A DNA stretch of 64,000 bases from Pocillopora damicornis (lineage: Eukaryota), in assembly GCF_003704095.1 (NCBI RefSeq), contig NW_020844095.1, forward strand, positions 62,001 to 126,000. Direction: 5' to 3'. The notes under the pieces are model-generated. The model made no database searches. It was not told the origin of the DNA and was given only the letters and a program-made list of their open reading frames with translations. The translations under genes were made by a program, and so were the position numbers. Below are positions 22,460-61,499 of this stretch, one piece after another (position 1 is the stretch's first letter; each line of letters starts with the position of its first letter).

Positions 22460-23371
22460 ATGAAAGAAGTGAAAACTCAGAGAGATTGGCATGACATCGC
22501 CTTTCGCTTATCAGGTATGGTGTTCAAGATGATATGACGATTTATTTACTCGCCTAAGCCGCGCTGTTTACCACGCATCTTAACTGATGCAAGTTTTAAT
22601 TGAGAGAGAATAATTGTTCATACGAGAGTGTCGCGAAGAATAGTAAAATACTCTGACAATTTAATTGCTAAGAATTCGAGAACAAGGCTCGTCTTCGACC
22701 AGATATCTTCCTTCAAAATAAGAGCATTTTTGAAGCAAATGGATCTAAGCTGCAGTCGAGCCAGGGTCTTTTGACGAAGTGACGCCATTTTCACATCTTA
22801 CTGGTTCGTGTCTACATCCGACGAATATCGAAAAGTCGTTGTTAGAGATCATGAAGAGAAATACGGCAGTTTTGAAATACTAGTTTTCAAATAGATTTGT
22901 TTCTGAGATTACTGTTTCATTGGTGGTTACTTTCTCTTAAGCCTTCCGACACGCGTGTTTTTTTCGCTCATCCTTTTGTTCTGAGAAGCTGAAGCTCATT
23001 ATATCCGGTCGTCTTTTTACATTGCAGCTCTTTGTGGAGGATTTGAAAAATACGACATCGTGGAAGATACAGGCTTTAGTGCTAAGAATAGAAGAAAATC
23101 TTCCCAAGAAAGACCAAATGACCAAGACTTAATCAGGAGAGGCTCTCTTCCCCAAGCACGTAAGAAAGGAACTCAGGCTCCACTCCAAGACTCACGCATT
23201 TCCCTCACCAAAAGAAGTTTTAGTGACGGGGTAGTAGTTGTAGAGAAGAACACGGATTTTTCAACAAGAAAAATCGACAGATCGCCCAAATCACATTCAC
23301 TGGACTTAGACGTCTCGTCTTTCGACTTCAGCGAGCTCAGGAGCTCAAGTTTATGCTCTACGGAGTTATAG
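22460..23371 (+). CDS. CSTEL-family gene 1, two coding exons (22460-22514 and 23028-23371), ~132 aa, ending ELRSSSLCSTEL
   Basis: accATG at 22460 reads MKEVKTQRDWHDIAFRLS; phase-1 donor G|GTATGG at 22515 and acceptor ctttttacattgcAG at 23027 join in frame with the 23060 ORF (which the track starts at GTG); shared C-terminal motif. Confidence 0.75.
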
Positions 23372-26300
23372 ACAGTACATAAACATTTTACAAGGCCGCT
23401 CACAAGGCAGCTTGGCTCGGGACGAAAAAAAACACTGAACCAAATGAAAGCTTTCACCTATTTATGTTTGCGTATATTGTTTATTTGTATATATGAAATC
23501 AAGATGTTAAAATTTCAAGGCCAAAATTATGTACCATTTTAGAAGTGAAGGCTAAGGTCCTTAGCTAAAAAAAGCTCTAGAATAATAACTTATTATCTAT
23601 TGTAGCCGGCCAGACTACAAGTCCTACAAATTAAAAGTCAAGTATCAAAGTATTGAATCCTTTCGTTGAGTTTGCTTTTATCAGCCAAATATTGGCGAAA
23701 TAAGTTTGTTTTTGTTCTTTAAAATTTTATTCTGTTGCTCTTCCCTAACTTCGCGTGCAAAGTTTGAGAGCGCAAGTTCCTAAGGAACTTCTCACTCGAA
23801 GCTTTAAATTTAGCGAGATGCATATCGCTGTTTACAAATTTAGAAGTGTCCCGTAAGTCGAGGAGGGATATCCATTTCAAGGCTCTTAGAGCCAGATGCG
23901 ACTCTTGCTATAAAAACATAAAACTCATTTGTTCAACAGTACAACATTAGTTATGTTTATCTTGTTACGCAGCACACATTTCCATTGAATTCAGCGAGGA
24001 AATGTGCTTAAAAGCAACGTTTTTCGACTCCAAGAACCTCTCCAAGCGCTCGAGGTATTTCCTGATTGAGGACGTAAGCACGAGAGCATGTCCGAGACGT
24101 CAATTGACCTCTTTTTCTTCTTGGCTTACCTTGGTTTCTCAGGAATTTGCTAAATCACAAGTGATAAGGGAAAAAATCCGGCAGTTAATTTGCGAAAATC
24201 TCATTAGGATCTGACCTCAGAAATGCGTCCAGAAAGTTCGCCGAAAATGATCCCATAGTATCACTTCAATCCTTTGTTTTGTTTTCTGCTAACGTATCGG
24301 CAATGAGATATTTTACAAATACTCGCGGATCTTTATGTTAAGCTTTCATACGAACTATTGTCTAGACGAATTGGCTTCGGATGATGCGAATTTCTTTGGA
24401 TTTTGCCTCAAGATTTAGGATTTTTTCGCAGGCAAACCCCAGTGCCTCTTTGAAAGTTTATAAGGATTCTCGAGGCTCTTGACATTTCAATGGAGTCTTT
24501 TGAAGTTTCATTTCTTTAATCCCTTTAAATTTTCAGAAGAAGCCGACACTATCACTAACATTTCACTTTGTGTCATTAACTACACCTTTCAGAGGTGAAC
24601 CGACAGAGTTTTACGTGCCAAACGGTAACAATTTTTCAAGCCCGCTTCTCGCCTGTAATACGCCGAAATTCATAAAATCATCGTTCGATTCTAAATCTAC
24701 TTTGATTTTCCTGCTTTACCGGAGAGTTATTATCAAGTATCCAACTGTTAATCTCCAACGTTTTTCTAATAGAAATATTTGTGCTTCGTTATGTCCAGCT
24801 TTAGACTCTCGACTCCCTATAGATTTTAATAACGCGTGAGGAGTGAGTACAGTTGCATGAAAAGTACGATTTTTACGACAACATAAAAAAACGATGTCTC
24901 TGTGCGCTGGGTAGTCGACGATGTAAGGTTAGGAGATAAATTTTCACGCGTTGGCTAACGATCAAAAGCCAGGCAATGAATTTTTTTTGTAATGAATTGT
25001 TATCGTTTGGCTAAGGATGCCTAGTCCTTTCCGATGCGGTGGCGAGCTTTCTACTGTCATTCAGTCTTTTCTGGGCGATGAAGTCGATTAGTTACATGAA
25101 AAAGAACTACTGCATGAGGTAGTCGAAAGGTCTTGCTTCACAGCGGAAGTGACTGCATTGTGAAACAATCGATAACAGTTCATTTCTCAGAAGTGTATTC
25201 ATCACTACCACCTGATTTTGTCACTATAAATAACTAAACTTTTAACGATATGAGGTTAATTTTTAGAAACCATTTAACAACGTTCAAAGCCTTCAGTTCA
25301 TTTGAATTTACAATTTTGGACATTTAAAACAAAAAAAAAAGAAAACATGTTTGCATACTTTCAAGATTGTTTGCATTATTTTTCTTTCCATTTAAGAGAT
25401 AAATTCTAGAAAAAACAATCTCGACAAGAGCCTTCACCTCTTTTATTGCTTTGAGAAGTTTTCGTGGCAACAAACGCCGGAAGAGCATTTCCCTTGTTCA
25501 TAAAGGGCAGAGATACAAGTTGACAGTGCTATCTCGGGTAATTATTGTGGATCCGGTATTTTTCCTTTTTTTTCCTCTTTTTTTTTGGTTATTTCCTGTG
25601 ATTCGTGACGATGTAGGAAACCACCAGTTGCCAGACAATAGTGGTTGTTGACGAAAAAATGATAAAAGAATGATTCATCATCTTCTTGTGAAAGTGAAAA
25701 TTTATGTTTGATGCTCGCTTGCCTGTTATCTTAATTAGCAAGTCTTTTCAAAAGAGTGCTTCTCAAAACAATTAATTAGATTTAATTGAAAAAGAGCGGT
25801 TTGAAGCTGGATTAATCTTCTCTTACGTAAGCACTTCACGAAATTTTCAGAAGGTATTTGGCACTGTTTTTGAAGGAAAGGAAATAGCATTGCAACATAT
25901 ATAATGGAGGAATCAGTTGTGGGGTTAGGAAAGTAACCAGACTGAGTACTGTAGCACTGAAAGAGCAACACGAAATGAAACGAGAAAAAGTGTCGATGTT
26001 TACCAAATGCATGCTTGGTACAAGCGAGAGTGTAAACTGCGATTAGCAGATGTTAAACAGCGCAAAATCCGATTATAAACATTGCGCTAAATGTCGTAAT
26101 GAGAAGCACCGACCATGCGAAGCCACACGCGAGGAAGAAATTAACAGAATGTACATAGTAAAAGGAGTTAGCCCATTTAACCCCAAGTGTGATCAACATT
26201 CAATTTCTTCTTACAGTAACACTGCTATGGGAAAGATAAAGGTGCTGAGAAAAAAAACAAACAATCCGGAAGGGAAAGACGCCGTTGGACATGTTTTTCT

Positions 26301-28454
26301 CATCTTGGTTTTATGATGATGTTTGAACGTCAGTTAACTTTACAGCGAATATGTGTGCTGACATTAAGTTTTGAGGACTTAATTTAGGACATTTTCAAGC
26401 AATTTTCCCGATTTTTAAAACACGTGTAACTCCAATCTAAATGCGCATTTGCAAATGGGCATAAAGCCCTTGACACGATGACCTCGCAAAATCCGCTCGC
26501 CCATAAGTGATTCACAAAATAGCCAGTTGCTTTTCCGTTTTGTAACATTTTTTTAACGATGACAACGACTGTGAGGAAATTTTATGTAAAAAAAAAAAGA
26601 AAGAAAAACCCGCAATTTTTCTATTCGTGGGCCTAAAAAGCATCTCTGAACTTGTCTTGCGGTAAGCTTTGTTGCGCTAATTGCTTACGTGGGCATTTTA
26701 TCTTCTGTCCTCCAAACAGGATCCGATTAGAAATTATTTCGTGGGAAATATTCAACTAAATGTTTTGAACTGATAAGGAATCTTTGACTGATACTTCCAC
26801 TCCCTCTATTCAAACATCTTCATGTCTTATCATTTCATCTTCGTTTCTTGTGCCTTTAGCTGTGAAACTTGTGTGCAGGCCCTTATGAATAGCTTTGCAG
26901 GAAGCGCGTTTCTCGTCCCGCGGGAAGATTGGAGATCGGTTCGGACGGAGGTTTGCCAGGAGTCTAGCACTATATCAGTTATACCCCTTGCAGGAGAGGC
27001 TTAGTAGGAATATTGCTCTTTCGGTTAGCGTTTTATATTATTGGCCATTTTACGGCTAACAGTTAATGTCTTCATATTGCTGTCCCCAGCAATTATTCCT
27101 ACGGTTATCCTTTTTTACAACTAACAGCCAAAAAGTGACAAAATTTACGCCTAACAGCTAAATCTCAAGCAGACTTTTTGCCGTTTCGCGTTCAGTCAAG
27201 GCTTCATACTTTCTTCTTTACCCCAAGCAAAGAAACGCTCGAACTTCAATGAGGGCCTGATTACTGGCTCTTAGTTGTAAGAAATTGAAGTGAAATCAAA
27301 CAAAATCCATTTGTAAGTTAAAAACTTATGTGACTTAAACTTAACATAAAGTTAACAAAAGTTTTAATTTTTGACAACTTAAAAGTCGAGGCAGGAGTTT
27401 TATATCATACATATAAATTTTCATTTCCATATGGACATAACGGCTTTTTGCGATTAACGACACCTTTCGGCAACCAGCGGGCCTCGCTACCTGAGTGCTT
27501 GCACTAATATTTCTACGACATGTACCTTAGAAATAGCCATGTTAGGGAATTTAAAATGGATCAAGAGATTACTTTTGTCTAATTTTATTAAAAGAAGCAA
27601 AACTTTCTGACAATTTCCAACAATTGCAAGGAGATTTTGTTATCACGTTGGATTAAGTTAGAAGAATTTGAGTCTTGTTGCACTTGGCTAAGATTGAAAC
27701 ATGCATGTGTTAAAGCTTGTCAATACAAATTGATCGATTCGCTTTTCATGATTAACTCCAATGTTTTTTTCAAAATTGGTCACAGAATGATCTCGTGTGC
27801 ACTTTTATCATTTAAACTACGGTGTTATACAACGATTTCCAGCCCTGAGAAAAGCCGTAACAACACACGTGTAAAAATACGATATTCTTTCACGCGTGTT
27901 TGATATCGCCAATAAGCAGCTGACACGACACTCGCCTTTCGCGCTACTCGGTCAAGTTGATAAATGGACGATAAAGCCTTCAGATTCTCAATACAAGATA
28001 GTTTCTCGGATGATGGCCGCTATACGCTAAAAAATCCGTATCGCTCACAGACAATGACGTTCAAACTTTCCTGTAAGGGGAAGAAAATCAATTATGTAAT
28101 ATACGAATAGAAAAACCGAAAGTTACGTATTGGGTGGCTATGGTGATGGCATTTCTCGCGGCTGAGAATGAAAATCGACAACTGGAAGATTTGCCGCAGG
28201 CCGATTTTAGCCGTTTATCGGAAAGACTTCTTCTGTCGGTAAGGACAAAGTCGATAAATAAGAATTTTATAAATTGAAAATTGCGCCCATTGTTCTTTTT
28301 ATAATCATGATTCAACGCATTTTTTCATCTTAAGAGTTAGCGCCAATGCACTCCTCGATTGTTATTTGGGGCTTGTCGATTCATTTATTTTCACCCATGA
28401 ATGAAGCCGGCTTTTCTTTTCAGTAAAGGGCTATTGTGTTTCTACGATAAACAA

Positions 28455-28604
28455 AATAATACATGGTTGCTTGTAGATTTGTAGATATGGAATGTCTCTC
28501 ATCGTGTTCAACTCAACATCTCACTCGTTCGCTGCGCTCCTTCGTGAGCTATCGAGTCGAACAATCGAAGAGAAATTCCATATCTACGTGCACCCATGTA
28601 TTAT
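28455..28604. mobile_element. Palindromic MITE-like element
   Basis: Inverted arms aataatacatgg...gtagatatggaat / attccatatctac...ccatgtattatt around a ctcactcgttcgctgcgctccttcgtgag core. Confidence 0.65.
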
Positions 28605-32469: not shown

Positions 32470-32904
32470 ATGAAATGTGAATTACGCAAAGTTTGGGCAA
32501 TTGTTACTTCAAAGAAGTCAGAAAAACAACCGAGGCCACGCTCTAAGTCCATTTCCTGCTCAAGAGAAGCTTCACATCCAGAAGCCAGTATTCTCTTTCA
32601 TAACAAAGAATTTGAGATTGAAAAACAGACTCACATCCCCTACCGTATCAGGCAAAGGCGACGACGATCTCAGCCTGAAGGAAGAAAAGGCCAAATAGGT
32701 CGTGGCGACCCACGGAATAGCAGCCCTTCTATTAAGAGAGAGATGGACGCCAGTAAAAAACGTCTTTCCACAGACTTTCTGCAAGGCCTTGAGATCGAGG
32801 ACAAACAAGCAATTTGGAATCCACTTAAATTAACGAAAGTCTTCAGTGACACTAGTATTCAAGATGGTTTTTTGACAACCACACTTTGTTCAACAGAGCT
32901 TTGA
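32470..32904 (+). CDS. CSTEL-family gene 2, single coding exon, 144 aa, ending QDGFLTTTLCSTEL
   Basis: ATG with A at -3, proximal TATA box, RPRSKS and RRRSQP motifs, shared C-terminus. Confidence 0.85.
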   Translation: MKCELRKVWAIVTSKKSEKQPRPRSKSISCSREASHPEASILFHNKEFEIEKQTHIPYRIRQRRRRSQPEGRKGQIGRGDPRNSSPSIKREMDASKKRLSTDFLQGLEIEDKQAIWNPLKLTKVFSDTSIQDGFLTTTLCSTEL

Positions 32905-34484: not shown

Positions 34485-34835
34485 TGTCTTTTTCGTCTTG
34501 TCATGAGCTTGGGAGAAAGAAAAAATTCTGAGTACCCTCGAATAGGAATCGAGCCTTCGCGCTCCGATGCTCTACCACTGAGCCACAGAGACTCCACGGT
34601 GAGCGAGGTCTATTACGAAGTTCATATGACACGCGTCCTACATACTGTTAGGATCAACAATGTCTACAGCGTAATGTTTTTAGATAGAATTAAGAGAGAT
34701 GGTAAGTTTTAATCTCGGTGAAGAAATAGGGAAAGACATTTTTTTCGTCTTGTCACGAGCGTGGGACAAGACGAAAAAAAAGATGTTTCTCTATTTCTTT
34801 ACCGAACTCAAAACTTATACTCTCTCTTATTTCTA
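34485..34835 (-). mobile_element. tRNA-derived SINE-like repeat (degenerate copy at ~10170-10370)
   Basis: Minus strand has A-box TGGCTCAGTGGTAGAGC and B-box-like GGCTCGATTCC; tttttcgtcttgtca(t/c)gagc occurs at ~34488 and ~34741. Confidence 0.6.
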
Positions 34836-39256: not shown

Positions 39257-39580
39257 TCAAAGCTCCGTTGAACAGAGTGTTGTAGTAGGCAGCTCTTGAA
39301 AGCTTGAAGCATCCAGTTTAGTACTGAAATGTTGGTCGAATGCCTCATCAGTTGAATAGCACTGAAAGCGCCTCACATGTGGAACGGACTTGCTTCTACC
39401 CTGGCGACGTTTTTTTGCGATTTCCGCCATGTCTATGATTTGGGCTTCCACTTCACTAAAACTGTTTTCCATCACTGGGGTCGAATTACCGCTGCAAGAA
39501 GAAGTTTCCCTGGACGCTGAGCTGATATTCAAAGAAATGGATCGACGCCTTGGTATTTTACCATACTTTAACTTCTCCAT
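39257..39580 (-). CDS. CSTEL-family gene 3, single coding exon, 107 aa, ending QELPTTTLCSTEL
   Basis: ATG-initiated ORF with RRRSIS and RSKSVP motifs and the shared C-terminus. Confidence 0.85.
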   Translation of the reverse strand: MEKLKYGKIPRRRSISLNISSASRETSSCSGNSTPVMENSFSEVEAQIIDMAEIAKKRRQGRSKSVPHVRRFQCYSTDEAFDQHFSTKLDASSFQELPTTTLCSTEL

Positions 39581-44825: not shown

Positions 44826-45578
44826 ATGGCCACAGTGAGACAAAAAATGCGTAAGAGAAAAGATGGTCATATTTGTTTGAAAAATATTTCTATGCAACAG
44901 GAGATTGGAGGGTCAGCTGAAAGCATTCCTTGCGCTAACTTCGAGAACCGTCCTTCTGTTGGTCAAAGTGGGGAAGAGCTTCGAAGAACCAGATCGTTCT
45001 CCCTGCCAAGAGTGTTAAAGAAAGAAAACGACACGCAAACCTTACTTCAGATCCTGTTTAGAACAAAAAACCGGCTTAAAAAAAGTAACTCAAATTGCGG
45101 CACTTTGTTTACAAGTAACGAGAACGACAAAATATTTAACCAGGACGACAATTGCACTAAGGTTAGTCAGCCGCCTTCCCAGATTGAAGGCTTAAAATTA
45201 GAGCAAAATAACTTTGTGATTCCTACAATTTGCATTCAACCACCCGAAGAAGTGGACAGAACCTCTCACTTAACGCATCCAATCACAACAGTCGAGCAGG
45301 CGAACACAGCACAACAGCTGGCAAACGATCCAACAAAGGGTTTAATGGAGGATCCTAAACAGGCTTCAGCTATAAGCCGCTCTGAAACAACCACTACAAC
45401 TACAAAGAGAGGAAACAAAACGCCACCGCGAAGGAAAAGAAGCTTCTCGTGGAGCGATATTTATACCATTGGGAATTTGAGAATTAGCCCTACGGAGGTA
45501 TTGAAAGGGAGCAGTTCGTGGAGTGAGCTCCTCAACTCGGCTGCGAGAGAAACCGACCTGTGCTCAACTGATCTGTAG
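44826..45578 (+). CDS. CSTEL-family gene 4, single coding exon, 250 aa, ending RETDLCSTDL
   Basis: Good Kozak context (aaaATGg); long hydrophilic ORF with RTRSFSLP, RKRSFSW and PTICIQPP motifs; shared C-terminus. Confidence 0.88.
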   Translation: MATVRQKMRKRKDGHICLKNISMQQEIGGSAESIPCANFENRPSVGQSGEELRRTRSFSLPRVLKKENDTQTLLQILFRTKNRLKKSNSNCGTLFTSNENDKIFNQDDNCTKVSQPPSQIEGLKLEQNNFVIPTICIQPPEEVDRTSHLTHPITTVEQANTAQQLANDPTKGLMEDPKQASAISRSETTTTTTKRGNKTPPRRKRSFSWSDIYTIGNLRISPTEVLKGSSSWSELLNSAARETDLCSTDL

Positions 45579-46834
45579 GAGGACAATGAGGTCAGTGGAA
45601 ACTTTAATAGTACTCGACAGCTTTAAATTAATATAAAAAGGGATGAATAACAAATAGTTTATATAAATTGTTGTTTGTTAAAACTTTACCATTCGCTAAT
45701 TAGTATCGCTATCAAAATTTGTCAATCACCGTTTCCTGTAAGTTATACACAAGTCATAAATGTCCAATTTACGACTGCTATAATCCTACAGACAAACAAA
45801 ACCTGATAGTATTCGAAACTGATCTTATTTTTCAATTTCATCAATTGACTAGCTTCTATTCATATGATACTGATACGTACTTCTCGCATGAGGAGTTTAC
45901 TTCAGACTTAATTAAAAATATAACTCTGCTGAAAGAAATAGGAATTACTTTGCGGTTATAAATGCTTTTTTTACGTCTGTGTGGGCGAAAGCGAAAATCA
46001 CGGAAGGAGAGCATTTTTCATTCAGGCTGCTGTATCACCTCCATGCGTTTTATTCGGTTGCGATGATTCGATCAAAGCCGGAGTTAAATATTTGGATGGA
46101 GAATTTGATCTGACAGAATTTCATATGAAACACAGACTGGTAAATTTAAAAGATCCCTCTCAGACGCCGCTTTCTGCCAAGTCATATCAAATATGTAAGT
46201 CCCCCACGATTGACCTTTCCCGTACGTTTCAGAGCAGTCCCAAACAAAAGTTAAATTCTTCGTAAAGATTAACTCAACATCCAATTACACTTTGCAAGAA
46301 TAGCCATCATCAACATAAATAAAATTGTCAGACATAAACACATTGAAAAACAAAGTTTCGAGGTGAGAGCGTCTACGCCAAATTTAAGTCTTCCAGTGGG
46401 GGATCAAACGAGGTGTCCGCTAGGTGTTTTCTACATTTGGATACCATAATCTATTAACCTCTCTTTCTCTCATATCCCATCTCTCTGATATTGCATTCCT
46501 AGCAGCCATTTCCTCCTAGATCCCTCTTTCCTTATTTAATACTCTATGTTCGATGGACCCTCTATCTAGTGCCGCTCTCTCTTTTACCTCCTCTCTCCAG
46601 TAACCGCGTTTCTTCTGGCCTTTTTTTCCCCCTCTTTTTACCTAAAAATTCCTCCACTCCGCCTGTGGTAGCCACAATCAGATCTCTTCCTTTATTTGAA
46701 GGCAATAGGTAATTGCATGACCTTGAGCGAACTATTTTGTGACGAATATACAGATCTTGCAACTGAAAATGTCGACTTTTTGGGTGATTGGTAAATTACG
46801 AAATCGATTTTCAAGTCAAAAGGGTGTTTTGCCT

Positions 46835-47042
46835 TTACCCTTTAACTCCCAAGATCTGATTGTTAGTTCTCCCCTATAACTGCCACACTTTTCCTTTAGA
46901 TAAGTAAAGAGAATTTGGTTTGAGATCAAGATAACAACCCCAACCTGATAAGTTTGAATATTCTTATAACCTGTTTGCTGGATAATGTTTAGATATTATA
47001 GGGAGAGGTTACTTGTTGATCAATTCTGGGAGTTCAGGGTTA
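46835..47042. mobile_element. MITE with terminal inverted repeats
   Basis: Left end taccctttaactcccaagat and right end attctgggagttcagggtta are imperfect inverted repeats; related ends near 26168. Confidence 0.6.
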
Positions 47043-50000
47043 CTACTCGTATTTGAGATGGTAATTTTAACAATATGATATGGACGAAAACGATCATTAA
47101 ATCGATGTAAATTTTTTATGCTTTAAGTGAAGTGGTGATTATTGAGCATCAAGAATAAAGTATCACATGGATCCTATTCAAGAGAGTCCCGCCCCCTTTC
47201 TAGGAGGCCATCCGACTGTAATTATATTGGGAGTGATCCCTCCTCGCAAATGAAAAACGTGTTTTCTCGAGTTAATTAGATCGGTATGTTTTGAGGAAAA
47301 TACTTACAATCGGTGTTACCCTTGTAAATGGTTTAAACACGGGAATTATTGTGATTTTGATGAGCACTCATTCCTCGAAAGTGCCCGCATCTTAAACAGC
47401 CTCATTGGAGTATCTAAATCTTCAGCATTGTAATGAATATTCTCACTCAAAAACCAGTCTGCAACGTTTTGATTCCTATTTTTGGTGCTTGAATTGCAAG
47501 ACTATTCAAAGAAAAGACACAGACCACATTAAAAAAGGAAAACCACTGAACAAACAAAACAAAAACAAGGTCGATAGGCCAAATCCCAGGATACTATCCA
47601 ACGTACAGGTTTTTCATGTAGGCTACACGAAAAACCTATACGTTGTCATGGTAATTGCAAAGCGTGCTTCGGCCCTGGGTATACATAAAAGGAAATATGT
47701 ACGGTAACAGGTCCTAACTTTTTGATGAGCTGAACACAACTTTCTGAAAAAAGCATTTTTATGATGATTTTCACTCGGAATGTCCAAAATCAGTCTCTGT
47801 TTTCGACGACACCATTTCGCCCTCAGTCGTATGAACATCTCAGAAGAGATCGAGGAGTCTCTGATGAAAAAGCAACTTCTCAAGTAAATCCTTTCTCGCT
47901 CAAAAGTACCTTTGAGGTTTATTAAGTTTCAAAGATTCTATTGGTGATCATAGATCGACTCTGTTATGAGTAATTTTGAATCTACAGATTTAGTCTCCTA
48001 TAAATCAAAATCTGTAGGAACAAGAATCATCGCCGGCGCTTATCACCACTCCGACGATTCATTTACAAAATGCCAGAAATAGCCCATGTCATGATCGAAT
48101 TATCACTTTTCTTATCGTTACGTGCACCTCTTCAGAGAGAGCGACTAAGGAGACTTTCTCCTTTTAATGATGGCATTAAGTTAACGTTGACCAAAAGTGT
48201 ACCTGTCCCTCATAAAATTCACACCAAAGTTATTGCTTGTCACATTGGTTAATTTGATGGGTTTTCTTCTTCTTAAATCCTAATCCTTCTCACGGAGAGT
48301 GTTCTTATATTTTCTATTGAGTTTATGAAACGACAAAGGCGCACGGAGTCGAAAACGTGCCATCAAAATTATGATTGAAGAGTGAAAGTCGTAATATTAT
48401 GTTTCTTGATCTTTCTTCCATTTTGTTGCGTTCTTTTGATGACATATGACTTAAGTTACGATTGTGTTGTTGACATACACAAGCTGTTTACTGCATGCCT
48501 AAACGTAAGGCGTAGTGCAATACTGGAACATGTTTCTGAACTGTAACGATCAGGATTGAACGATGATTGAAAATTTCACCAAAGTCAAACTTGACTAGAA
48601 CAAACGTGAAAGCATGCCAACCCTTGAGTAAATAAAGGATGTTGATCTCAAGCAATTTTTTTTTTTTTTTTACTGACGTAGTGATCAAAAACATCGTGCG
48701 AAGGGATTTCAATGTCTGACAATGCAGACATCTACGGGAGGAGCTTTCAAAAGACAACTCCTTCACTGCTTCGGCATTTTGTAATCCTGGCCAATTTTCT
48801 CCATTCGTACTTCTCTTCCACCAACTCTTTCCCCTTTGGGATTTTTTTCTGCCCGAGTAAACTTTTATCTAAACGTCCTCATCCAATTAAAGTTATAATG
48901 ATGTAGCTCCGTGAAGTAATTGAATGATTTAGTGGAGGAAATGCCATTTTCTACACTTCTACTGATTCTTAAACGGATAAAAATCGTAGCTGCCAGGCGT
49001 TCAATCAAAGTGTAATTATTTCCAGGAGTCTCCCAATCATTCTTGACACTTTTCTGTCTAGAGTGATTTATTGAATTTGACCAGGGATGTAAGCAGAACC
49101 TCTATGTTTATCAGTTTTATACTTACGTTATGCTCTGAAGAGCTATTCACATTAAATTTCTCTAAACACTATCTGTACAACTAACTCAAAGAATTTTATG
49201 AAAATGTAACGAAGTCCTCGTTACTTCAGTCAAAGGATTCCTGAGGAGAATTTCTACTTTGAGCATTCTGTGACAAGGCCGAGTGTTAATGGAGTTTCAA
49301 GTTTATTATTAGGAATCGAAAACCGTGGAGAGCGTCACGACACTTGTAAAAAGTCAATCCCGGTATGTTTTCTCTTCACTTTATTTCGTACAAAGCAGCA
49401 ATTCTTCAATAGATGTTTCAAAAGATCAGTTGTAACAGCTTGAGACAGTTTTATAAAACCACGCTCGATTCTTTTGGCATGAAGCGTTTCCGCTTCTCTG
49501 AAAATGTGAATGTTACAAATTTAGATCTTACAGTTGACTGATTTCGCTCAGGAAACCAGGGGTTGTTAATTGATTATTGGCCTCAAACCGCTTTCTAAGT
49601 AACATAACAAATGTTTTATTTGTGTACAAGTTAGATCTTCCTTTTAGATGTGTACAAAAGTAAAGGATAAGTTATTTATGATAGGATAACACTAGTCGGC
49701 ATAGATAAGCTTAAGATCATGTGATAAGACATGATCCATCATTCTGAGTAAAACTATTATACAATTTGACTGCTCGAATTTGGGTCAACATTTCGACTGA
49801 CCTGCTTAGAAATGCATTACACGATTAGGCAATAAAAAAACCTCGCATAGTCGAAGTGGTTGTAACTTCTTCAAAGAAACAAACAGTTCCAGTTGACTGC
49901 TGAGGCATCATTTACATTCAGAACGGATTACAACTCCTTGACCCTTTTATTGTCAATAAATTCGGCTCTTTTAGAGCTTTTGCTAATCAAGGATTTTGCC

Positions 50001-50262
50001 ATGCAAACATCCGGATCTAAACATTAATAAATCGCATAAGATTTAATCAAGTTTCTGCTGTAATTCCAGATAGACCGTCCGTATTCCACCAGAAACTACA
50101 TTTCAGCTCGCCACAACGTAGACAACAGACAATTTATTTATCAATTTCAAGTCGCACGGGTCAAGTACTAAGGCAACTCAGTCTATGGCAGCCTTACATC
50201 AACTTATCAAAGTAACATCACATATTCTTGTTCTCGATTTCAAGTATTGAATGGCAAACCTT

Positions 50263-51258
50263 TCAAAGCTCAGTTGAACACAGATCTGTCTCAATCATAC
50301 CCTGTTCAAATCTAAATCCTTTTAAGGCCATATAGCTTAAGCGTTTTCCATTTGCGCACTCTTCGCCGTTCGAGGAAGAAGTAACATAAATTTGGGGGCA
50401 TAGTTTGGCCGTGTTATTTCCGTTTGTTTCGTTTACATCTTCTGCCATGTAATTATGATTTGGTAACGTTCTAGAAATTGCGTTCTTAGTGCTGCGAATG
50501 CTGTCCACGTTGCCACTAAACGAATTGCTTCTAGTTCGTACCAGTTTTCGTGCACCTGGTTTGCCGCTGTCGTTCCCATTCGCTTGTTTATTAGGTTGCT
50601 TAGCTCCGTGTCTCCAGTTCAACAAACCAGTGAAAGACTTACTTCGTTTGGGACGCCTCGGTCGTTTCGCTTTTATCTTTTTGTCGTCGTGTTCCTCGGT
50701 CTGACTCTCTCCAACTGCAACACGATATGTCGCGGAAGACATTTCACAAGATCTTTCCTCACCCTTTCCGTTCTTGTCGGTTCCAAGGCCATCGACATTA
50801 TTTTCTTTGAGACTTTCCTCACTAAAACCATTTGCGGAGCTTCCTTTCCGCTCGTCAAATTGCTTAAGATTAAGGTCTTGGTTTGGACGTGTGTATTTTG
50901 CTAAATCAGAGCGAGCCTTCCGAGAAAGAACTGGCCGTAGCGCAGCTTTGATAGAGCTTCGGCGCTCTTTACATTCCACGTCTTCGTCCAGATCATTCCT
51001 CGAATGCCGTCTTTGTGTAATTAGTTGCTCAACACTGTTCGATCCTGAGGCTCCATCGTTTTCCAAATTATCCTCGGACAAAGTGTTCTCCGACTGAACG
51101 TCCAAGCTGCTCTTACCTGCTAATTCATCCGTGGAAGAGAACACATCACTATCACTGCCAGATGGAGATCGATTACGCATCCGGAGCCCAAGTTTAGAAA
51201 TCTCTTGGCCGAGTCGACGAACTGCGGATGTCATAACTGTACGGTTGTCTTGTTTCAT
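50263..51258 (-). CDS. CSTEL-family gene 5, ~331 aa from the first ATG, ending GMIETDLCSTEL
   Basis: Open frame of about 1 kb; first in-frame ATG (MKQDN) at 51258 whereas the track uses TTG at 51333; possible upstream acceptor (acttAG, minus strand) near 51335; RNRSPS, KRSKSF, RTRSNSF and PQIYVT motifs. Confidence 0.88.
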   Translation of the reverse strand: MKQDNRTVMTSAVRRLGQEISKLGLRMRNRSPSGSDSDVFSSTDELAGKSSLDVQSENTLSEDNLENDGASGSNSVEQLITQRRHSRNDLDEDVECKERRSSIKAALRPVLSRKARSDLAKYTRPNQDLNLKQFDERKGSSANGFSEESLKENNVDGLGTDKNGKGEERSCEMSSATYRVAVGESQTEEHDDKKIKAKRPRRPKRSKSFTGLLNWRHGAKQPNKQANGNDSGKPGARKLVRTRSNSFSGNVDSIRSTKNAISRTLPNHNYMAEDVNETNGNNTAKLCPQIYVTSSSNGEECANGKRLSYMALKGFRFEQGMIETDLCSTEL

Positions 51259-53598
51259 TCTCCAGAATCCATTTAAAAGGCAGCCAGATGCTCCCCTTGA
51301 AAAGACATCTACGCCAATGACCTCGAATAACAACCTAAGTATATAGGTTCTTGTTTATATTGTACACTATTGTGTCTTGGACTGTTTTGGTAAGATTCCG
51401 TTCTTGATATATCACTCAACCAAAAGACTGCAAGTTTTCGAACAGCAAATATCAACTCGAACAACGCGAACCAATCAGTTCCTTTTCCATTCCTGTTACC
51501 AGTCCGTAGATCTATCGTTTCGTCGAGATATTTATCGTCTGAAGAATTGTCTATTCTAGGCGAAGAGCTTTTGAGTGTTTTTCAATTGAAGACCAGACAA
51601 ATGAGACAACGATCACGGCCGGGCCAAGAGCTTTTCGTTGTGAATATAGACATTCAATCAGGCAAAACACAAGCTGTGTATTGTGTTTCGTGACGCACGG
51701 CCAATTAATAATGCCTGGTGTCAGGTTGCAGTACTTAGAAAGGTTCAAGTGACTTCTTTCGTCTTTCGCGTGACCTCGCTCTAGACGCTGCAATCACAAC
51801 ACAGCTGGAGGACATAAATAGCTCCTAATTCCATTAAAATTGATCAAATAACTGTTTCGCTGATAAGGTAGTGGCATACGGACGGTAAATCGAAGTCACG
51901 CAAAGGAGGATTATCAGCGTGTGACTCTTCCTCATCTGTCAGAAGGTAATCTTTTAAGAACTCTTTTGAAGGACGTGAAATGATTTCAAAATAACCAAAG
52001 ATTTGCGAAGCAGATTGCTCATTTAAGCTGTAACAAAGTGTGCATGTAACTGACATTTGGCGCGAAACTGTTTATGATCTGTCATTTCGTTCCTTTGTGG
52101 AATTCTGGTTCGATCTTGATCGATTAAACGCCGAAAAAAAGCCATTCTAATTTCTTCTTACTATACCAAACTTGCTCAATAATAATAAATTAATAATTAA
52201 AGTAACAAAGGAACAGATACCTTTAGTGTGGAGCAAGGGCTTTCATAATATCGTTAATATTGAAGCTGCAGAGCTTCAGCGATGATATGGTTCGTGTTGC
52301 TTATAGACGAATGACTGCCAGAAATACTAGTTACAGGGCTGCTTACTCATCTTAACGTTGACGACTGGAGTTTACTCCTGTCATAACCCGGATTGAGAAA
52401 CTAAGCTTGCGTGAGTTATTTGAGAACTTCCCCTCAATTGCATTCCTTTGCAAGGCCACAAAAACTTGTATTAACTTTTGGGTGAAAGACAATTCCGATA
52501 ACAAATGTGCCTAAACTACCCACTCGGCAAAGGAGATTCAAAAGAAACATCTTACATCCAACCGGAAAGACTCTAAAACTTCCGCGTGATGCAAAAGCAT
52601 ACATATTTTCGACCTAATCTCTGATAGGACATCTCATATCCATGCCAGCAAGACGCTGAGAAATATCAGATATCGCGGATACGATTATCTAACTATTTTG
52701 GAATTTCCTCTGGTTTTCATCGTTAGCCTTCATGAAAAGGTTTAAGAAAATGAAATACATCCGAGCAGATTCAAACGCTTGGAATGTTTGCCTCAGCGTT
52801 TTAATAAGTTCGGCATTTAGTTTGTACATCAATCCCTACCTCAAACCTCTTGACCTTCAATTGAATATCAGCTTAAGTGGTCTGTTCAAAAGAAAAGTTT
52901 AAATTGGTCTGATGAAACCTTGGTAAAACTCAAGCTGCAAAAAAGTCTAAAGGATTCACTTAAATTGTGAGCATTCGTTTTAGTAAATGAACTAGCAATT
53001 TCAGAGTTTGAATGCCAAGGTTCCGAGCAGTCCATCCTTATCTGGAACATCTCTCTGTCGATATCACTTCAGTCAGTCGGCTTGATGTCTGGTGCTTTTC
53101 AGTGAGTGCTCGAAGTAAAGATAAAATCATCGTCAATGGTCTATGATGTTTAAAAGCCGTTGAATATTTTGTAGCTATTAATGGATACCGAGGCGACTCG
53201 AAATCTCACCCGATTCAATTCAGTGATTGAGGCCTACAACCCGAAGATGCCCCTTACGGGTACGAGGGATTTTAATATTAAACTTTTCTAGGAATTCTTA
53301 TTCGATAAATGGCCCATTAATTAGTTCCAGGAGGAATACTCAACAAACTCCATCGATGGATCCTCTACTAGCTGTGATTTTCAAATCCCTCCCCATTTAT
53401 AAAACACCTTTAGTTCAAAAGGTGTATTTCCCATATCTAGAACAATTTCCTAATAACTGCTGACAGTATGCGTGATTGCTTTGTTGTTTCCTCAATTCGC
53501 ACTGTGATTGGCTTAGAAACCTTGCATCACTCTTCTTTCTATGAATTGCGAATAGTGCCAGCCTGAAGAAAAATGTAAGCTTTGATGTAATTCGCACC

Positions 53599-53826
53599 CC
53601 AGTCTCCCAGAGCACTGATAACCAAATTTCTGATAATACTTCATTTTGCCAAAGATTGTCAAGTGTTAGCATCGTAAACTAAAAACAGTCGTTTTCTTTT
53701 CCAAAAATTCAGGCTTTGAAGGAATTTGCATCCTAGTCTCTCAGAACACTGATAAGCAAATTTGTGATAAGATTACATTTAGCTGTGACCAAAGATTATC
53801 ACGTGTTAGCATTGTAGGCTAAACAC
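53599..53826. repeat. Diverged ~90-bp tandem duplication
   Basis: agtctc..aga.cactgataa.caaattt.tgataa...ccaaagatt.tca.gtgttagcat.gta occurs at ~53600-53685 and ~53733-53826. Confidence 0.75.
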
Positions 53827-55074
53827 AAACATTCGTTTACATTGCTAAGGTCAGCATTTAGTTGCCGTTAGCTATAGGGAGCTGAAATTACAAGTAGCAA
53901 GTAGCATTGTCCTAACTTATATTTTTTCTTATCCTAGGTGTCGCCCACTCGTGACAGATGCATAGATTGAATAACACACCAACGGCACTATTTCGAACAT
54001 TGAAAAATGGCTTTAAAATGTTAATTTGAGTAAATTAAATCTGTATTATGGAGTAAAGAACGAGTAGTCGAATCAAATAATGACCAAATGAATTAACTGA
54101 TGAGAATAAACTGTTCAGCCGTCCATTTGGACAACATTCTTCATGCGCAAAGCGAGTTAATCCTGCTCAACCTACACCGTCTTAGCTCTTTACTTGATTA
54201 CTGCTGACCCTCCTGTTGCAATCGATTTTTTAAGCTGAGACATATTCTTAGTGTCGTGAAATTGTATGGTTTGAAAAACGGCAAGTAAAAGATCTACTTT
54301 TGGCAAAACGTACATAGGATCTTCTGGCTAAATTTACAAGCTCATATGAACGCAATGATGATTTTCACCTCTCCAACGCGCTATCCTTTTCACTACCAAC
54401 TGACTTAACATGCTCGTAAACACTCAGACGCACGCACGCATGTAGTCTTCCGGGAAAAGTGAACTTTTATAAAGTGCTGAATGTCAACTATCTTTTGGCG
54501 AAACCTTTAACCTACAAGCCTGTATTGGAATATGGGAATATTAACGTATGAACATTTTCAGTATAGCAAGGTTATCCTTATGCTTTTTCTTGTTGTGGTA
54601 ACTGTAACGATACACCTTGTGAAGAAATTTGCCGTTATCTTTAAACATAATAAAGCTGATAGAACGCACATGCGGCGGACTCGCATCTGAAATTCTTTCT
54701 AATTAGTCACTTGTAAAAAACGGGCAGATTTATCAGCTGGCATGCACTGTTTTCATTACTTAACACCTCCCGAAAAGTATTGTTTGACGTCACATCTTAC
54801 ACTTGACATCAAATAATAAATGGATTTTGCTTTCGTACTATGGCGATAATTATCGAGGGCTTTATTTCTCTTATCCGTTTTAAGCCCCCAGTTTACTTTT
54901 ATGACCCGAAATTTGCCCATAATACCTATCGCGTTCAGTACTAAATGAAATTCTAGTGCAATCCTCGAAGTGATATCGGTTCATTTTTCTCATTTTGATT
55001 TCATGTGTAAGGAACCGTATGCTCATTACAACTTCTCATCATGCTTAAGAAGCTTGGAGGATAGATTTTCTTAT

Positions 55075-55151: not shown

Positions 55152-56399
55152 AATTTTAAAAAACCCTGGTTTGTGTATCTTGAAAACCAAAGCAATCCAT
55201 TTCGACCAACGCCATCTTCTCTCGTCAATGTTTCTTTTTGGTATCTTATCGCCTATTTTATTGTTTTTTTAGTTTACCAAACTGACATAATGATTTACCG
55301 TCCATCTCAATATTCTTCATCCTCAGCCATTTTTACTTCTTCTTGGTTTATCTTTCTTGTTCCTCCATCCTTTGTGTTTGTTTACAATCCGTGTCATTCT
55401 CTTTCATCCTTAAGCATAACCGGAAGTTTTTGATTTAATCTTTTTTAACTGGTTTTCTTTTCCATAGCGAGCGATTATTTTCAAGCTTCTTTCTGTTTAA
55501 AGGAATACGTCTTCGAGTGACGAGAAAAGATGCGAGCTTATATTAATGTAACACAAAACTAGCTAGACCATTTTTCAGGGAAATCTGAGGCTGTCCGAGT
55601 GGAAAATTACTTATCAGTCAGGCGGATCTTCGAGTTTTATTTAATTTAAAGTTTTCATTTTCCCTGGAGAAACTGTGTCACATAGCCAAGTCGAAAATTC
55701 CTTCTAAATGATATTTCAAACGTAGGTCTATTGGTTCATCGTCCTCGTTTAAGAAAAAATTGGCATTTCCCACGGGCAGTAAAGGGTTAAGCAACGGGTA
55801 AGCTTTCTTGAAATAACCGACCCATATCAGGATCTATTTTGTCTCCCTTGCTCTACTTAATGACAATTACTGATTTAGTTTTTGAATGATTTGTTTAATA
55901 CAAATGAGCCGAAATAACAGCATCATCAAATAATACTTTTCAATGGAAAGCTCATATTGCCGCGGCTACGTGGTGTGATTTTATTCATGTCTCAGCTCAG
56001 TATCAATCATAACTAGGAAATGAAAAATTGCTTTTGTAGGTGCACAAGCACTTTGACATGATAAAATACAAATGTCACATTTTCCGCTTGTTACAACTGA
56101 ATCTGCACTTGAAAACATCAGGTTCGTGTCCGTGAGAAATCTGTAACCTCTTCTAAAATTTTTTTTAATCCAAGCTTAAACAAGGAGAGAGAGGATTAGG
56201 ATAAAGATTCACTGTTGTTATGAGGAGGTTACCTATACACTTAACCGCATTACAGAGAAAAAAAAATCGTTTTATCCTAAAAGCAAACTTTTAAATACTT
56301 TGTTAATAAAGCTAAAAATAATGCCTGCCCGTGTAGAGGACTCGCAGTGTCAGGTTTAATTAACTCCCCAATATTTCCTTGTCATGCACCACTTCGAGG

Positions 56400-56553
56400 G
56401 TTTATTTGGAACCAACATATAATAACCAGTTCCCAGTTGGCGTGTTAGCTCAGTTGGTAGAGCGTTGCACCGGTATCGTAGGGGTCATGGGTTCAAATCC
56501 CGAACGAGGCCTATTTCCACTATGTTCATAACTGCAAGGATCGCTTCCATATT
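56400..56553 (+). mobile_element. tRNA-derived SINE
   Basis: A-box TAGCTCAGTTGGTAGAGC and B-box GGTTCAAATCC, followed by a SINE body (tgttcataactgcaaggatcgcttccat) also seen at ~37300-37330; no proper acceptor stem. Confidence 0.7.
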
Positions 56554-57618
56554 TTCCATCCCATGCAAATTTAAATCGAAAAAGCCGGAAAACTTAATAT
56601 CAAATTAGTTTTAATCTGTTGTCACTCATTGTCCTTAAAGGCTATTTTTAGGTTACATTTGCGCATTCAACAGGAATCTAGGTTTCTCTTCAGAACACTT
56701 AAACTGAGCGCTATTTTAATGCATGCTTTTTGCGTTACAGTTATTTCCTGATTAATTAAATATTCGATTATCCAATAAAATCATGCAAATAGCAAATATG
56801 CAAACGCCCTTAGGGCATGGTTGGAAGAAAATCAAAAATAATTTTATCCAATCTTTATAAGAAAGTTTAGTTTCTTTTAAAGCTGTCTGCATGTAGTCGC
56901 ACTCAATTCTGTTTTCTTTTCTATGATAATCTAATGAATGGAATGCGACTTTTATTTATTGAGAAGACAAAACACTACACTGCTGTCTTGCTAGTTTCCC
57001 TCGTTAACATAAATAAGCATTCATCAATTAAACATTGTCACACATCCAGATAGAGGAGAGACATTGGCCAAAAATTTCAATATTACTATTCAAATATGCA
57101 AGCATCTCGGAATGCTCTTGTTCAACAAACAAAAGGTATTCTTAAACAGCTTTGAATTACTTTCAAGGCCTACAACGATTTTAATATTTTAAGAAAATAT
57201 TTATTTCTTTTTAAGAAAACATTATCTTTCTACAAGTCACGTCACTTTGCAGATGACACGATCTGTCAGAGATAGGGATTGGTCACATGACTGCCAAAAG
57301 CCACTTAAAAGTGGAACTGTGGTTACTAGCTGATTAAAATCAACATTAACGAGGCGGTGAAAAGGTGCAAAGGACATCATTTCTGGTAATTCATCTACAA
57401 AATCTTATAGTGTCGCCTTTCTGATGTGATGTCGGTTGGAAAAGTTTGGAGAAAGGATTTCATATCGCGGAGTAATTGAGAATCAACAATTATCAAAGTT
57501 TAAGGTGTACATGGTCGACATCACGTCAAGTTGTAGATCACGTACAGACGAAAGGCTAAGGTGAAATATCCCTAAGTAGACCTGTTTAATACCAGCATTT
57601 ATCGAGACCTGTAGAACA

Positions 57619-57978
57619 ATGAGCAGTCCTGTTATTCACCCGGGTGACAAGGTGACCATTACATTGAGTTTAGACGGCCAGGATCTGTCAAACAGTAACG
57701 AACTGGGTAACAAATCAAAACAGGAAGAATCCAACCTTCAGAAACAAATATTCCTCAAGAAAGCCGACACAACGTCCCCAGCAAAACCACCCTTAGTGAC
57801 GCGGAGAACGAGCTCACTACTCAAACTAAACATCGAAGGACTGTTAGTTGTTCCAGAGTTGGAAATAAGACTCAGAAGGAACTCTTATGGTGGTAAGTCT
57901 GTCCACGATGAAAGACACACCGAAGTTGATCCATCGGATGGAATGCTTACCACATCACTGTGTACAACGGAGCTTTGA
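57619..57978 (+). CDS. CSTEL-family gene 6, single coding exon, 119 aa, ending SDGMLTTSLCTTEL
   Basis: acaATG start; RRTSS and RRNSY motifs; shared C-terminus. Confidence 0.85.
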   Translation: MSSPVIHPGDKVTITLSLDGQDLSNSNELGNKSKQEESNLQKQIFLKKADTTSPAKPPLVTRRTSSLLKLNIEGLLVVPELEIRLRRNSYGGKSVHDERHTEVDPSDGMLTTSLCTTEL

Positions 57979-60900: not shown

Positions 60901-61025
60901 ATAGGAGTAGTCTAAGAAAATTTTCGAAATAAAAGAATTCATTATTAATTGCATAGTTGTTAAGTGGACCTTGTAATTACTCATAACAGCGCAATCGAAT
61001 TCGGTTACACGAGAAGTTGGTAGAA

Positions 61026-61499
61026 ATGTCAAAATCTGTTTGTTATTTCGATAGAAATTTAACAGAATTGAGAAAATCTGACGCCATAAAAATTTGCAAG
61101 AACAACTTCAGTGTGGATAGAAACCCAGCAGAATTGAAAGAACCTGCGGAAACAACGTGTATATTTACAAATGTGGACGAACCAACGGAAAGAAACCGTG
61201 TTTTGGGTCTGAGTGATGGCGTAGGCAAAGAAAATGACCAAATATTGATCGAAAATATATCGGAAAGTGTTACAGAGACCGAAGAAAAGGACGAAAGGAA
61301 GCGTGAAATAAGGAGAAAACGAAGCAGCTCACTGAGTTCTTTAGCACTTCTTAAGCAAACATTACAAGTGATTACAGTTGATGACAAATACGAACAGAAA
61401 CTACGAAGGGTCAGCTCGGTTCCCGGAACATGCAACTCAGGAGAAACTCAACTTGAAGATGGGTTATTGACAACAACGTTTTGTTCCACAGAGTTATAA
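61026..61499 (+). CDS. CSTEL-family gene 7, single coding exon, ~157 aa, ending EDGLLTTTFCSTEL
   Basis: First ATG at 61026 (track starts at TTG 61017); RKRSSS and RRVSSVP motifs; shared C-terminus; AATAAA at 61513 and 61691. Confidence 0.85.
   Translation: MSKSVCYFDRNLTELRKSDAIKICKNNFSVDRNPAELKEPAETTCIFTNVDEPTERNRVLGLSDGVGKENDQILIENISESVTETEEKDERKREIRRKRSSSLSSLALLKQTLQVITVDDKYEQKLRRVSSVPGTCNSGETQLEDGLLTTTFCSTEL

What the first reader, a model, noticed from the sequence alone, without database searches (positions are those of the whole stretch)
23060..61499. Every paralog carries basophilic kinase sites; five have 14-3-3-type RxxSxP motifs
Seen: g1 RRKSS, RRGSLP, KRSFSDG; g2 RPRSKS, RRRSQP, KRLST; g3 RRRSIS, RSKSVP; g4 RTRSFSLP, RKRSFSW; g5 RNRSPS, RRHS, RRSS, KRSKSF, RTRSNSF, KRLSY; g6 RRTSS, RRNSY; g7 RKRSSS, RRVSSVP. 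Established: RRxS is the PKA consensus, RxRxxS the Akt/SGK/S6K consensus, and RSxpSxP the 14-3-3 mode I motif. Inference: these sites are the second family-wide conserved trait, often paired as expected for binding a 14-3-3 dimer, making the proteins phospho-switched adaptors.
Basis: partly seen in the sequence, partly recalled or inferred. Interest (0 to 1): 0.7.

Follow-up and report, generated by a model that had tools for sequence, protein, structure and literature searches.

The report
Coral motif-only signalling protein cluster
A stony-coral gene cluster encodes at least ten uncharacterised proteins, predicted to be unfolded, that share a conserved tail and, in the paralogs tested, mostly conserved arginine-serine motifs; the tail likely docks on PDZ scaffold proteins, the motifs are likely kinase sites, and some likely recruit 14-3-3 once phosphorylated.

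Summary
All 20 listed motifs are in seven expressed coral genes, and three more paralogs lie just downstream. Against composition-matched shuffles, RRxS/T is 9 vs 1.6, RxRxxS/T 9 vs 1.6 and RxxS/TxP 6 vs 0.8; reversed motifs are not enriched. In other corals, 16 of 18 testable sites keep Arg(-3) plus Ser/Thr; g2 KRLST and g5 KRLSY do not. The 14-3-3 claim is weaker. The +2 Pro is kept in g7 (31/32), g4 (9/11) and g2 (3/4), lost in g1 (2/17), and untestable in g3. No window gene has two conserved mode I sites, and 8 of 34 tail-found relatives lack any dibasic site. The one universal trait is a 9-17-residue tail ending C-[ST]-T-[ED]-L, a class I PDZ-ligand pattern. Best reading: an unnamed family of motif-only adaptors or competitors at PDZ scaffolds, likely switched by AGC/CAMK kinases, with 14-3-3 in a subset. 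The motif logic is textbook; the family is new. No phosphorylation or binding is shown.

The parts
22460..22514 (+). g1 coding exon 1 (18 codons + 1 nt); missed when reading ORFs alone
   Evidence: GT..AG joint in one RNA run; sequence; a named Pocillopora meandrina protein has the same spliced N-terminus (P0180)
23028..23371 (+). g1 exon 2 (protein 132 aa): RRKSS 23090-23104, RRGSLP 23135-23152, KRSFSDG 23210-23230, tail ...LCSTEL
   Evidence: Arg(-3)+S/T kept 17/17, 16/17, 16/17; +2 Pro 2/17
32470..32904 (+). g2 (144 aa): RPRSKS 32533-32550, RRRSQP 32659-32676, KRLST 32758-32772, tail
   Evidence: 4/4, 3/4 (with Pro), 0/4
39257..39580 (-). g3 (107 aa): RRRSIS 39533-39550, RSKSVP 39380-39397, tail
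   Evidence: only members of its own 90% cluster were available, so conservation is untested
44826..45578 (+). g4 (250 aa): RTRSFSLP 44985-45008, PxIxIQ calcineurin-type motif 45222-45239, RKRSFSW 45432-45452, tail ...ETDLCSTDL
   Evidence: 11/11 sites, Rxx[ST]xP 9/11, PxIxIQ 11/11
45591..53937 (+). 8,347-nt intron in the g4 3' UTR, starting 12 nt after the stop; it contains g5 on the opposite strand
   Evidence: same GT..AG joint in 4 of 4 RNA runs; sequence
50263..51258 (-). g5 (331 aa): amphipathic, export-signal-like helix 51184-51222; RNRSPS, RRHS, RRSS, KRSKSF, RTRSNSF, KRLSY; internal tail-like VF[SC]STDEL 51121-51144; PQIYVT 50380-50397; tail
   Evidence: five sites kept 27-28/28, KRLSY 0/28; helix pattern 28/28; PxIx[IV]T 13/28
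57619..57978 (+). g6 (119 aa): RRTSS 57802-57816, LxVP-type 57841-57855, RRNSY 57874-57888, tail ...LCTTEL
   Evidence: 9/9 each; 8 of the 9 orthologs were first found by the tail alone
61026..61499 (+). g7 (157 aa): RKRSSS 61314-61331, RRVSSVP 61404-61424, tail 61458-61496
   Evidence: 32/32 and 31/32 (Pro kept); motif columns 0.93 vs 0.34 identity elsewhere

Best explanation
The seven genes, with three more just downstream, form a tandem family of coral proteins predicted to be disordered, whose conserved parts are short motifs: a shared C-terminal tail that likely binds a PDZ-domain scaffold, and arginine-directed Ser/Thr motifs that are likely phosphorylated by AGC/CAMK kinases, after which a subset (g2, g4, g7, g9, perhaps g3) would bind 14-3-3. 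Shown: the genes, their transcripts, motif enrichment and conservation, and the lack of any Pfam domain or hydrophobic segment. Inferred: unphosphorylated protein sits on, or competes for, a PDZ scaffold; cAMP, growth-factor or CAMK-group signalling phosphorylates the basic sites; 14-3-3 then sequesters or relocates it; calcineurin, docked through PxIxIQ/PxIxVT (g4, g5) or LxVP (g6), would reverse this. Each paralog would feed a different kinase/phosphatase input into a common tail.
For: It also recurs in 34 relatives found by the tail alone (RRx[ST] 30 vs 5.1; Rxx[ST]xP 16 vs 2.8; related sequences, not independent). Own-genome control ORFs are lower (5 disorder-like: 0.13 RRx[ST] per 100 aa vs 0.67). 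Ser/Thr with Arg at -3 is more conserved than other Ser/Thr (g1 0.78 vs 0.49, g4 0.70 vs 0.50, g5 0.81 vs 0.48, g6 1.00 vs 0.47, g7 0.90 vs 0.43). Around 83 Rxx[ST] sites, +2 Pro is 13 vs 3.8 expected and +1 hydrophobic 38 vs 20. The tail fits the class I PDZ consensus given in PMC7961048 (passages), with Thr(-7) in 67 of 68 distinct tails. No signal or TM segment (max 19-residue hydropathy 1.03); Atlas models of g5 and g4 orthologs have pLDDT 0.37 and 0.41. The genome holds 14-3-3 genes and 75 PDZ matches. 14-3-3 dimer + g7 88-157: weak support, score 0.57 vs best control 0.02, runs share at least 47% of contacts, partner pLDDT at least 36; the mark was reached by 51 of 78 solved and 2 of 108 mismatched pairs, but scores of 0.60 or under came from only 5 of the 78 and all 4 passing mismatches; unphosphorylated, peptides uncalibrated, like complexes are solved, so it may be memory.
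Against: No phosphorylation, binding or localisation data. 2 of 18 sites are not conserved; g1's +2 Pro is kept in 2 of 17; no window paralog has two conserved mode I sites. In g9 and g10 the Arg(-3) Ser/Thr class is not clearly better conserved (0.24 vs 0.44; 0.42 vs 0.24 on 3 sites), and g10's RRGS is absent from 4 of 4 relatives. 8 of 34 relatives lack dibasic sites. PxIxIT is enriched in the 10 paralogs (3 vs 0.29) but not in the 34 relatives (1 vs 0.64), and was noticed after the fact. Orthologs of g1, g2, g4, g5 and most of g7 came from word-seeded searches that can favour motif-keeping sequences. The disorder-like control is only 5 ORFs and itself shows RxxS 1.7-fold over shuffles. The PDZ partner is unidentified and PDZ binding was not modelled.
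Confidence: 0.55

Rival explanations
1. The sites are kinase sites, but 14-3-3 is incidental: phosphorylation acts directly (charge switch, export, degradation, or kinase/phosphatase regulation as in DARPP-32-type proteins), and the tail binds a PDZ domain.
For: Arg(-3)+Ser is kept where the +2 Pro is not (g1 16/17 vs 2/17). g5, g6, g8 and g10 have no Rxx[ST]xP. g5 has a conserved export-signal-like helix (consensus recalled).
Against: +2 Pro is 3.4-fold enriched and near-invariant in g7, g4 and g9. PMC2860806 (abstract) says fewer than half of real 14-3-3 sites have the Pro, so its absence does not exclude binding.
Confidence: 0.22
2. The basic sites work as in the best explanation, but the tail is not a PDZ ligand: it is a C-terminal degron (-EL type), an acylated or phosphorylated tail, or a mode III 14-3-3 site.
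For: Conservation runs 9-17 residues with an invariant Cys(-4) in the collected tails, more than a minimal PDZ ligand needs. Positions -6 and -8 alternate between Thr/Ser and Asp/Glu among paralogs, as phosphosites can. g5 carries an internal tail-like copy. Degron and acylation roles are recalled, not tested.
Against: Thr(-2) and Leu(0) match class I PDZ exactly. Asp replaces Glu(-1) in 7 of 68 tails, which an -EL degron (recalled) should not tolerate. Tails were collected by a pattern that fixes C, T and L, so their invariance is partly by construction.
Confidence: 0.15
3. The basic clusters are nuclear-import or membrane/RNA-binding patches, and the serines ride along by composition.
For: Proteins are 13-22% R+K; 'at least one site per gene' is not significant once R/K positions are fixed.
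Against: With R/K fixed, Ser/Thr is still placed 3 residues after Arg 2.6-fold above chance and never enriched on the reverse side; the acceptor residue itself is conserved.
Confidence: 0.05
4. They are pseudosubstrate kinase inhibitors of the INKA/PKI kind, or peptide precursors cut at dibasic sites.
For: ESM Atlas lists FAM212 (INKA) clusters at 0.77-0.78 for two members; scores under 0.9 are leads only.
Against: No Pfam FAM212 match in 7 window proteins or 29 g5-family members. The sites keep a phosphorylatable Ser/Thr. No signal-peptide-like segment.
Confidence: 0.03

Closest known systems
Tandem-site 14-3-3 clients in disordered regions (Johnson et al. 2010, PMC2860806; abstract and section 14 read)
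   Same: Basophilic AGC/CAMK-type sites in disordered sequence; pairs 24-40 residues apart in g1, g2, g6, g7; differential distribution across a paralog family.
   Different: Those clients carry a folded domain or activity that 14-3-3 controls; these proteins have no detected domain, and binding is unproven.
PDZ/14-3-3 switch proteins such as HPV E6 (PMC7961048, PMC8786283; passages read)
   Same: Class I C-terminal PDZ pattern together with 14-3-3-type sites.
   Different: In E6 the kinase site is the PDZ motif itself, with Arg just upstream. Here the tail has no basic residues near -2 and the basic sites lie about 20-300 residues upstream; no sequence homology was found.
Motif-only signalling proteins: DARPP-32/inhibitor-1, AKAP79, CRTC, SPATA33 (first three recalled; SPATA33 motif from PMC8786283 passage)
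   Same: Disordered, kinase sites plus calcineurin docking; g10 has the same PQIIIT hexamer reported for SPATA33.
   Different: No homology found. No RVxF enrichment in the 10 paralogs (1 vs 2.1). None is known to me as a ten-gene tandem family with a shared long tail. g10's PQIIIT is not kept in its relatives.
INKA1/2 (FAM212, PF15342) and MACIR (PF15435)
   Same: Weak language-model resemblance (0.75-0.78), probably reflecting motif-bearing disorder.
   Different: No Pfam match; below the Atlas bar.

Membership tests
14-3-3 client (mode I) | Rxx[ST]xP motif above chance | tested here: met
   6 vs 0.79 in 5 of 7 genes; 16 vs 2.8 in 34 relatives
14-3-3 client (mode I) | Motif, including +2 Pro, conserved in orthologs for all five named genes | tested here: not met
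   g7 31/32, g4 9/11, g2 3/4, g1 2/17, g3 no distant orthologs
14-3-3 client (mode I) | Two sites at least about 15-19 residues apart in disorder | tested here: inconclusive
   Conserved Arg(-3) pairs at 24 (g6), 29-31 (g7), 40 (g2), 14/26/40 (g1), about 149 (g4); never two with conserved Pro
14-3-3 client (mode I) | Phosphorylation-dependent binding | not testable with these tools
   Only an unphosphorylated model, weak support
AGC/CAMK kinase substrate | Arg(-3) Ser/Thr enriched, oriented and conserved | tested here: met
AGC/CAMK kinase substrate | Phosphorylated in vivo by a named kinase | not testable with these tools
   No phosphoproteomic data available here
Class I PDZ ligand | x-[ST]-x-[LVIC] at the free C-terminus, conserved | tested here: met
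   Stop follows T-[ED]-L in 10 of 10 paralogs; kept in 27 of 28 g5 and 32 of 32 g7 homologs found by whole-protein search
Class I PDZ ligand | Binds a PDZ domain | not tested
   Partner unknown among 75 PDZ matches
Calcineurin-docking proteins | Conserved PxIxIT or LxVP | tested here: inconclusive
   g4 PxIxIQ 11/11, g6 Lx[V]P 9/9, g5 13/28, g10 not kept; not enriched in 34 relatives; regexes recalled
INKA/FAM212 | PF15342 match | tested here: not met
   0 of 7 and 0 of 29

The most novel reading that the evidence does not exclude
Stony corals have built a bank of ten or more motif-only 'signal-coded plugs'. All end in the same extended, phospho-tunable 17-residue ligand for one PDZ hub, and each paralog carries its own conserved combination of PKA/Akt/CAMK sites, 14-3-3 sites, calcineurin docking or an export signal. 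Which paralog occupies the hub would then report the cell's cAMP, Ca2+ and growth state. This would be a coral-specific signalling layer, kept in the same gene order across species.
Probability: 0.25. Interest if true: 0.72.

Novelty: new variant of a known kind. Interest (0 to 1): 0.45.

Why it matters
The motif types are textbook, but the carrier is an unannotated family that Pfam, the PDB sequence search and the ESM Atlas did not place. It is kept across Pocillopora, Stylophora, Desmophyllum, Oculina, Porites, Acropora and Montipora. It gives named residues to look up in coral phosphoproteomes and a defined tail peptide for pull-downs. It is also a clean natural case of paralogs keeping one docking motif while diverging in kinase inputs, which PMC2860806 speculates drives family evolution.

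Tried and rejected
Pfam on 7 window proteins and on 29 g5-family members: nothing over a curated cut-off for the window proteins, and five families each matched by a single g5-family member at E>=0.001. PDB sequence search with the tail profile: 1 hit at E 1.1, chance. ESM Atlas: no usable hit for g7, leads under 0.9 for g5 and g4 orthologs, structure TM at most 0.31. Alternative last exons of one gene: rejected, since genes lie on both strands with their own UTR cover. Secreted precursor: rejected on hydropathy. PP1 RVxF: not enriched in the 10 paralogs. Promoter motifs: full CRE 0 and CArG 0 in 10 upstream regions, no clear AU-rich excess in 7 downstream regions. Other family loci in the genome: a 30-aa tail search found 4 matches, all in the cluster, and missed six known members, so it is insensitive; 36 of 43 pattern matches lie off the cluster contig against 26 control matches and were not followed, except one stretch that showed no family ORF. 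No distant g3 ortholog was recovered. Some database proteins extend past the tail through a Trp at the stop position; I read these as gene-calling artefacts, not readthrough, and the window's g1 stop is TAG. Literature: 'CSTEL' (84 papers, 20 listed, none on topic by listing), five gene ids (0 papers) and three concept searches gave nothing on this family; subscription papers and supplements were not searched and could list these genes. Earlier findings of the scan: none.
Full report
Setting. The window is AT-rich animal DNA at G000:C730. Near-identical named proteins come from Pocillopora meandrina, and RNA runs that hold it are coral or marine. A six-frame scan finds seven ORFs ending C-[ST]-T-[ED]-L-stop. 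The next 40 kb hold three more (g8-g10), and the 20 kb upstream of the window hold none. RNA contigs from 4 runs of 4 studies cover the genes. They show a coding intron in g1 (1 of 4 runs; the spliced product matches a named protein) and an 8.3-kb 3' UTR intron in g4 (4 of 4 runs) that contains g5 in antisense. These are separate genes, not exons of one gene. They have no Pfam family, no hydrophobic segment and low-confidence Atlas models, consistent with disorder.

Is the motif observation real? Yes. All 20 motifs translate at the coordinates given. In 5000 shuffles of the seven proteins, RRx[ST] is 9 vs 1.6, RxRxx[ST] 9 vs 1.6, RxxS 33 vs 12.7 and Rxx[ST]xP 6 vs 0.8 (5 of 7 genes). Local 20-residue shuffles and shuffles with R/K fixed leave the excess significant. 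Reversed motifs are at or below chance. As a baseline I took 80 stretches of 10 kb from five other contigs: 55 ORFs of at least 170 aa, 5 of them disorder-like. RRx[ST] density was 0.06 and 0.13 per 100 aa against 0.67 in the family; the small disorder-like set still showed RxxS at 1.7-fold over shuffles. 'At least one RxxS per gene' is expected by chance (p=0.20), and strict RSx[ST]xP is in g3 and g4 only.

Conservation. Orthologs came from whole-protein searches, a tail-only DNA scan (33 loci) and a tail-profile search (43 hits). For per-site counts I left out near-identical copies, duplicates and fragments; n = 17 (g1), 4 (g2), 11 (g4), 28 (g5), 9 (g6), 32 (g7), identity 0.24-0.91. g2 KRLST (0/4) and g5 KRLSY (0/28) do not, and g5 RTRSNSF keeps RxxS (27/28) but not the Akt-type RxRxxS (2/28). 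Motif columns are islands: 0.93 vs 0.34 identity in g7, 0.91 vs 0.51 in g4, 0.84 vs 0.54 in g5, 0.80 vs 0.49 in g1, but only 0.76 vs 0.67 in g2 on 3 sequences. Word-seeded searches can favour motif-keepers; tail-found g6 (6/6) and g7 (5/5) loci keep their sites too. The +2 Pro is kept in g7 31/32, g4 9/11 (11/11 allowing Lys at -3), g2 3/4 and g9 5/5, but in g1 only 2/17. For g3 only members of its 90% cluster were available (15 listed of 76), which is uninformative.

Is it family-wide? Not strictly. Of 43 tail-profile hits I dropped 9 (3 unrelated repeat proteins, 5 close copies of cluster genes including one fused model, 1 fragment). In the remaining 34, RRx[ST] is 30 vs 5.1 and Rxx[ST]xP 16 vs 2.8, yet 8 have no [RK][RK]x[ST] and 21 have no Rxx[ST]xP. 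The g10-like lineage is poor in sites, and g10's own RRGS is absent from 4 of 4 relatives.

Which kinases? Across 83 Rxx[ST] sites from the 10 paralogs and 8 chosen distant relatives, -5 is aliphatic (29 vs 16) or Arg (17 vs 7), -2 basic (34 vs 15) or Ser/Thr (27 vs 16), +1 hydrophobic (38 vs 20), and +2 Pro (13 vs 3.8) or Ser/Thr. Overlapping sites inflate some counts. This is the AGC/CAMK profile that PMC2860806 (abstract and section 14 read) and PMC8786283 (passages read) link to 14-3-3; both note the Pro is often missing in real sites. It does not single out PKA or Akt. Conserved pairs lie 24 (g6), 29-31 (g7), 40 (g2) and 14-40 (g1) residues apart; the paper puts the minimum for a dimer at about 15-19. 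A model of a coral 14-3-3 dimer with g7 88-157 gave weak support: 0.57 vs best control 0.02, at least 47% shared contacts, partner pLDDT at least 36. The mark was reached by 51 of 78 solved and 2 of 108 mismatched pairs, but at 0.60 or under by only 5 of the 78 and by all 4 passing mismatches. The peptide was unphosphorylated and similar complexes are solved, so this moves the odds little.

The universal trait is the tail. Over 68 distinct tails: Gly(-11) 63, Thr(-7) 67, Leu/Phe(-5) 68, then C-[ST]-T-[ED]-L (fixed by the selection pattern). The end fits the class I PDZ consensus quoted in PMC7961048 (passages read). Positions -8 and -6 switch between Thr/Ser and Glu/Asp across paralogs (48+1 vs 19; 43+6 vs 18), which hints at phosphosites (inference). 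Calcineurin-type motifs occur in g4 (PxIxIQ, 11/11), g6 (Lx[V]P, 9/9), g5 (13/28) and g10 (PQIIIT, not kept in relatives). They were noticed after the fact and are not enriched in the 34 relatives. g5 begins with a helix matching a recalled export-signal spacing in 28 of 28 orthologs. Gene order and orientation g6(+), g7(+), g8(-) recur on two metagenome contigs.

Mechanism. Most likely these are motif-only adaptors or competitors: the tail docks on a PDZ scaffold, basophilic kinases phosphorylate upstream sites, 14-3-3 captures a subset, and calcineurin resets some (0.55; all binding steps inferred). Rivals: kinase sites without a 14-3-3 role (0.22), a non-PDZ tail (0.15), composition or import signals (0.05), pseudosubstrate or precursor (0.03).

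Known and new. Named homologs are all 'uncharacterized' or 'hypothetical' scleractinian proteins. Several divergent members are unnamed, so the range beyond stony corals is open. Six literature searches (listings and abstract starts seen) found nothing on the family; closed papers and supplements were not seen. It works like tandem-site 14-3-3 clients and motif-only regulators, but belongs to no family tested. Verdict: observation confirmed, interpretation partly supported, new variant of a known kind, interest 0.45.

Noticed in passing
window 45591-53937 and 50263-51258: g5 is nested antisense in an 8.3-kb intron of g4's 3' UTR; the intron starts 12 nt after g4's stop (4 of 4 RNA runs).
   Followed up: partly
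L001:1318-1809(-), L001:6098-6862(+), L002:2277-2822(+): Three more paralogs (g8-g10) just beyond the window; g9 has an internal expansion of about 100 aa absent from 5 relatives.
   Followed up: yes
window 51121-51144 (-): g5 carries an internal tail-like copy, VF[SC]STDEL, with Cys in 14 of 28 orthologs; similar STD-hydrophobic stretches occur in g2, g3 and g10-like relatives.
   Followed up: partly
tails of all paralogs: Positions -6 and -8 alternate between Thr/Ser and Asp/Glu among paralog lineages, a natural phosphomimic pattern.
   Followed up: partly
window 22485-23519: One RNA run has a contig running through the g1 intron (retention, pre-mRNA or DNA), another has the spliced form.
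   Followed up: no
1.5 kb upstream of g2, g4, g6, g7, g8: E-box GTCAC[AG]TG upstream of 5 of 10 genes against 0.8 expected from random genomic stretches; post hoc, and the background is not promoter-matched.
   Followed up: partly
window 6851-7993 (-); 2-601 (-); L005, L006: Intronless rhodopsin-family GPCR (7tm_1, E 6e-36) and further GPCR-like ORFs flank the cluster upstream.
   Followed up: no
L121:1471-2226, L122:1474-2217 (G000:C2648): Two adjacent intronless 14-3-3 genes, 61% identical; further split 14-3-3 matches on C2811 and C2929.
   Followed up: partly
P0226 (Stylophora pistillata model PFX33150.1): One predicted protein appears to fuse parts of g6, g7 and g9, likely a gene-model error that also implies the same gene order there.
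   Followed up: no
window about 43500-44100, 46820-47480, 56100-56800, 62100-63400, 27300-28600, 34500-35200: Short repeats that attract many unrelated RNA contigs; probably dispersed elements.
   Followed up: no
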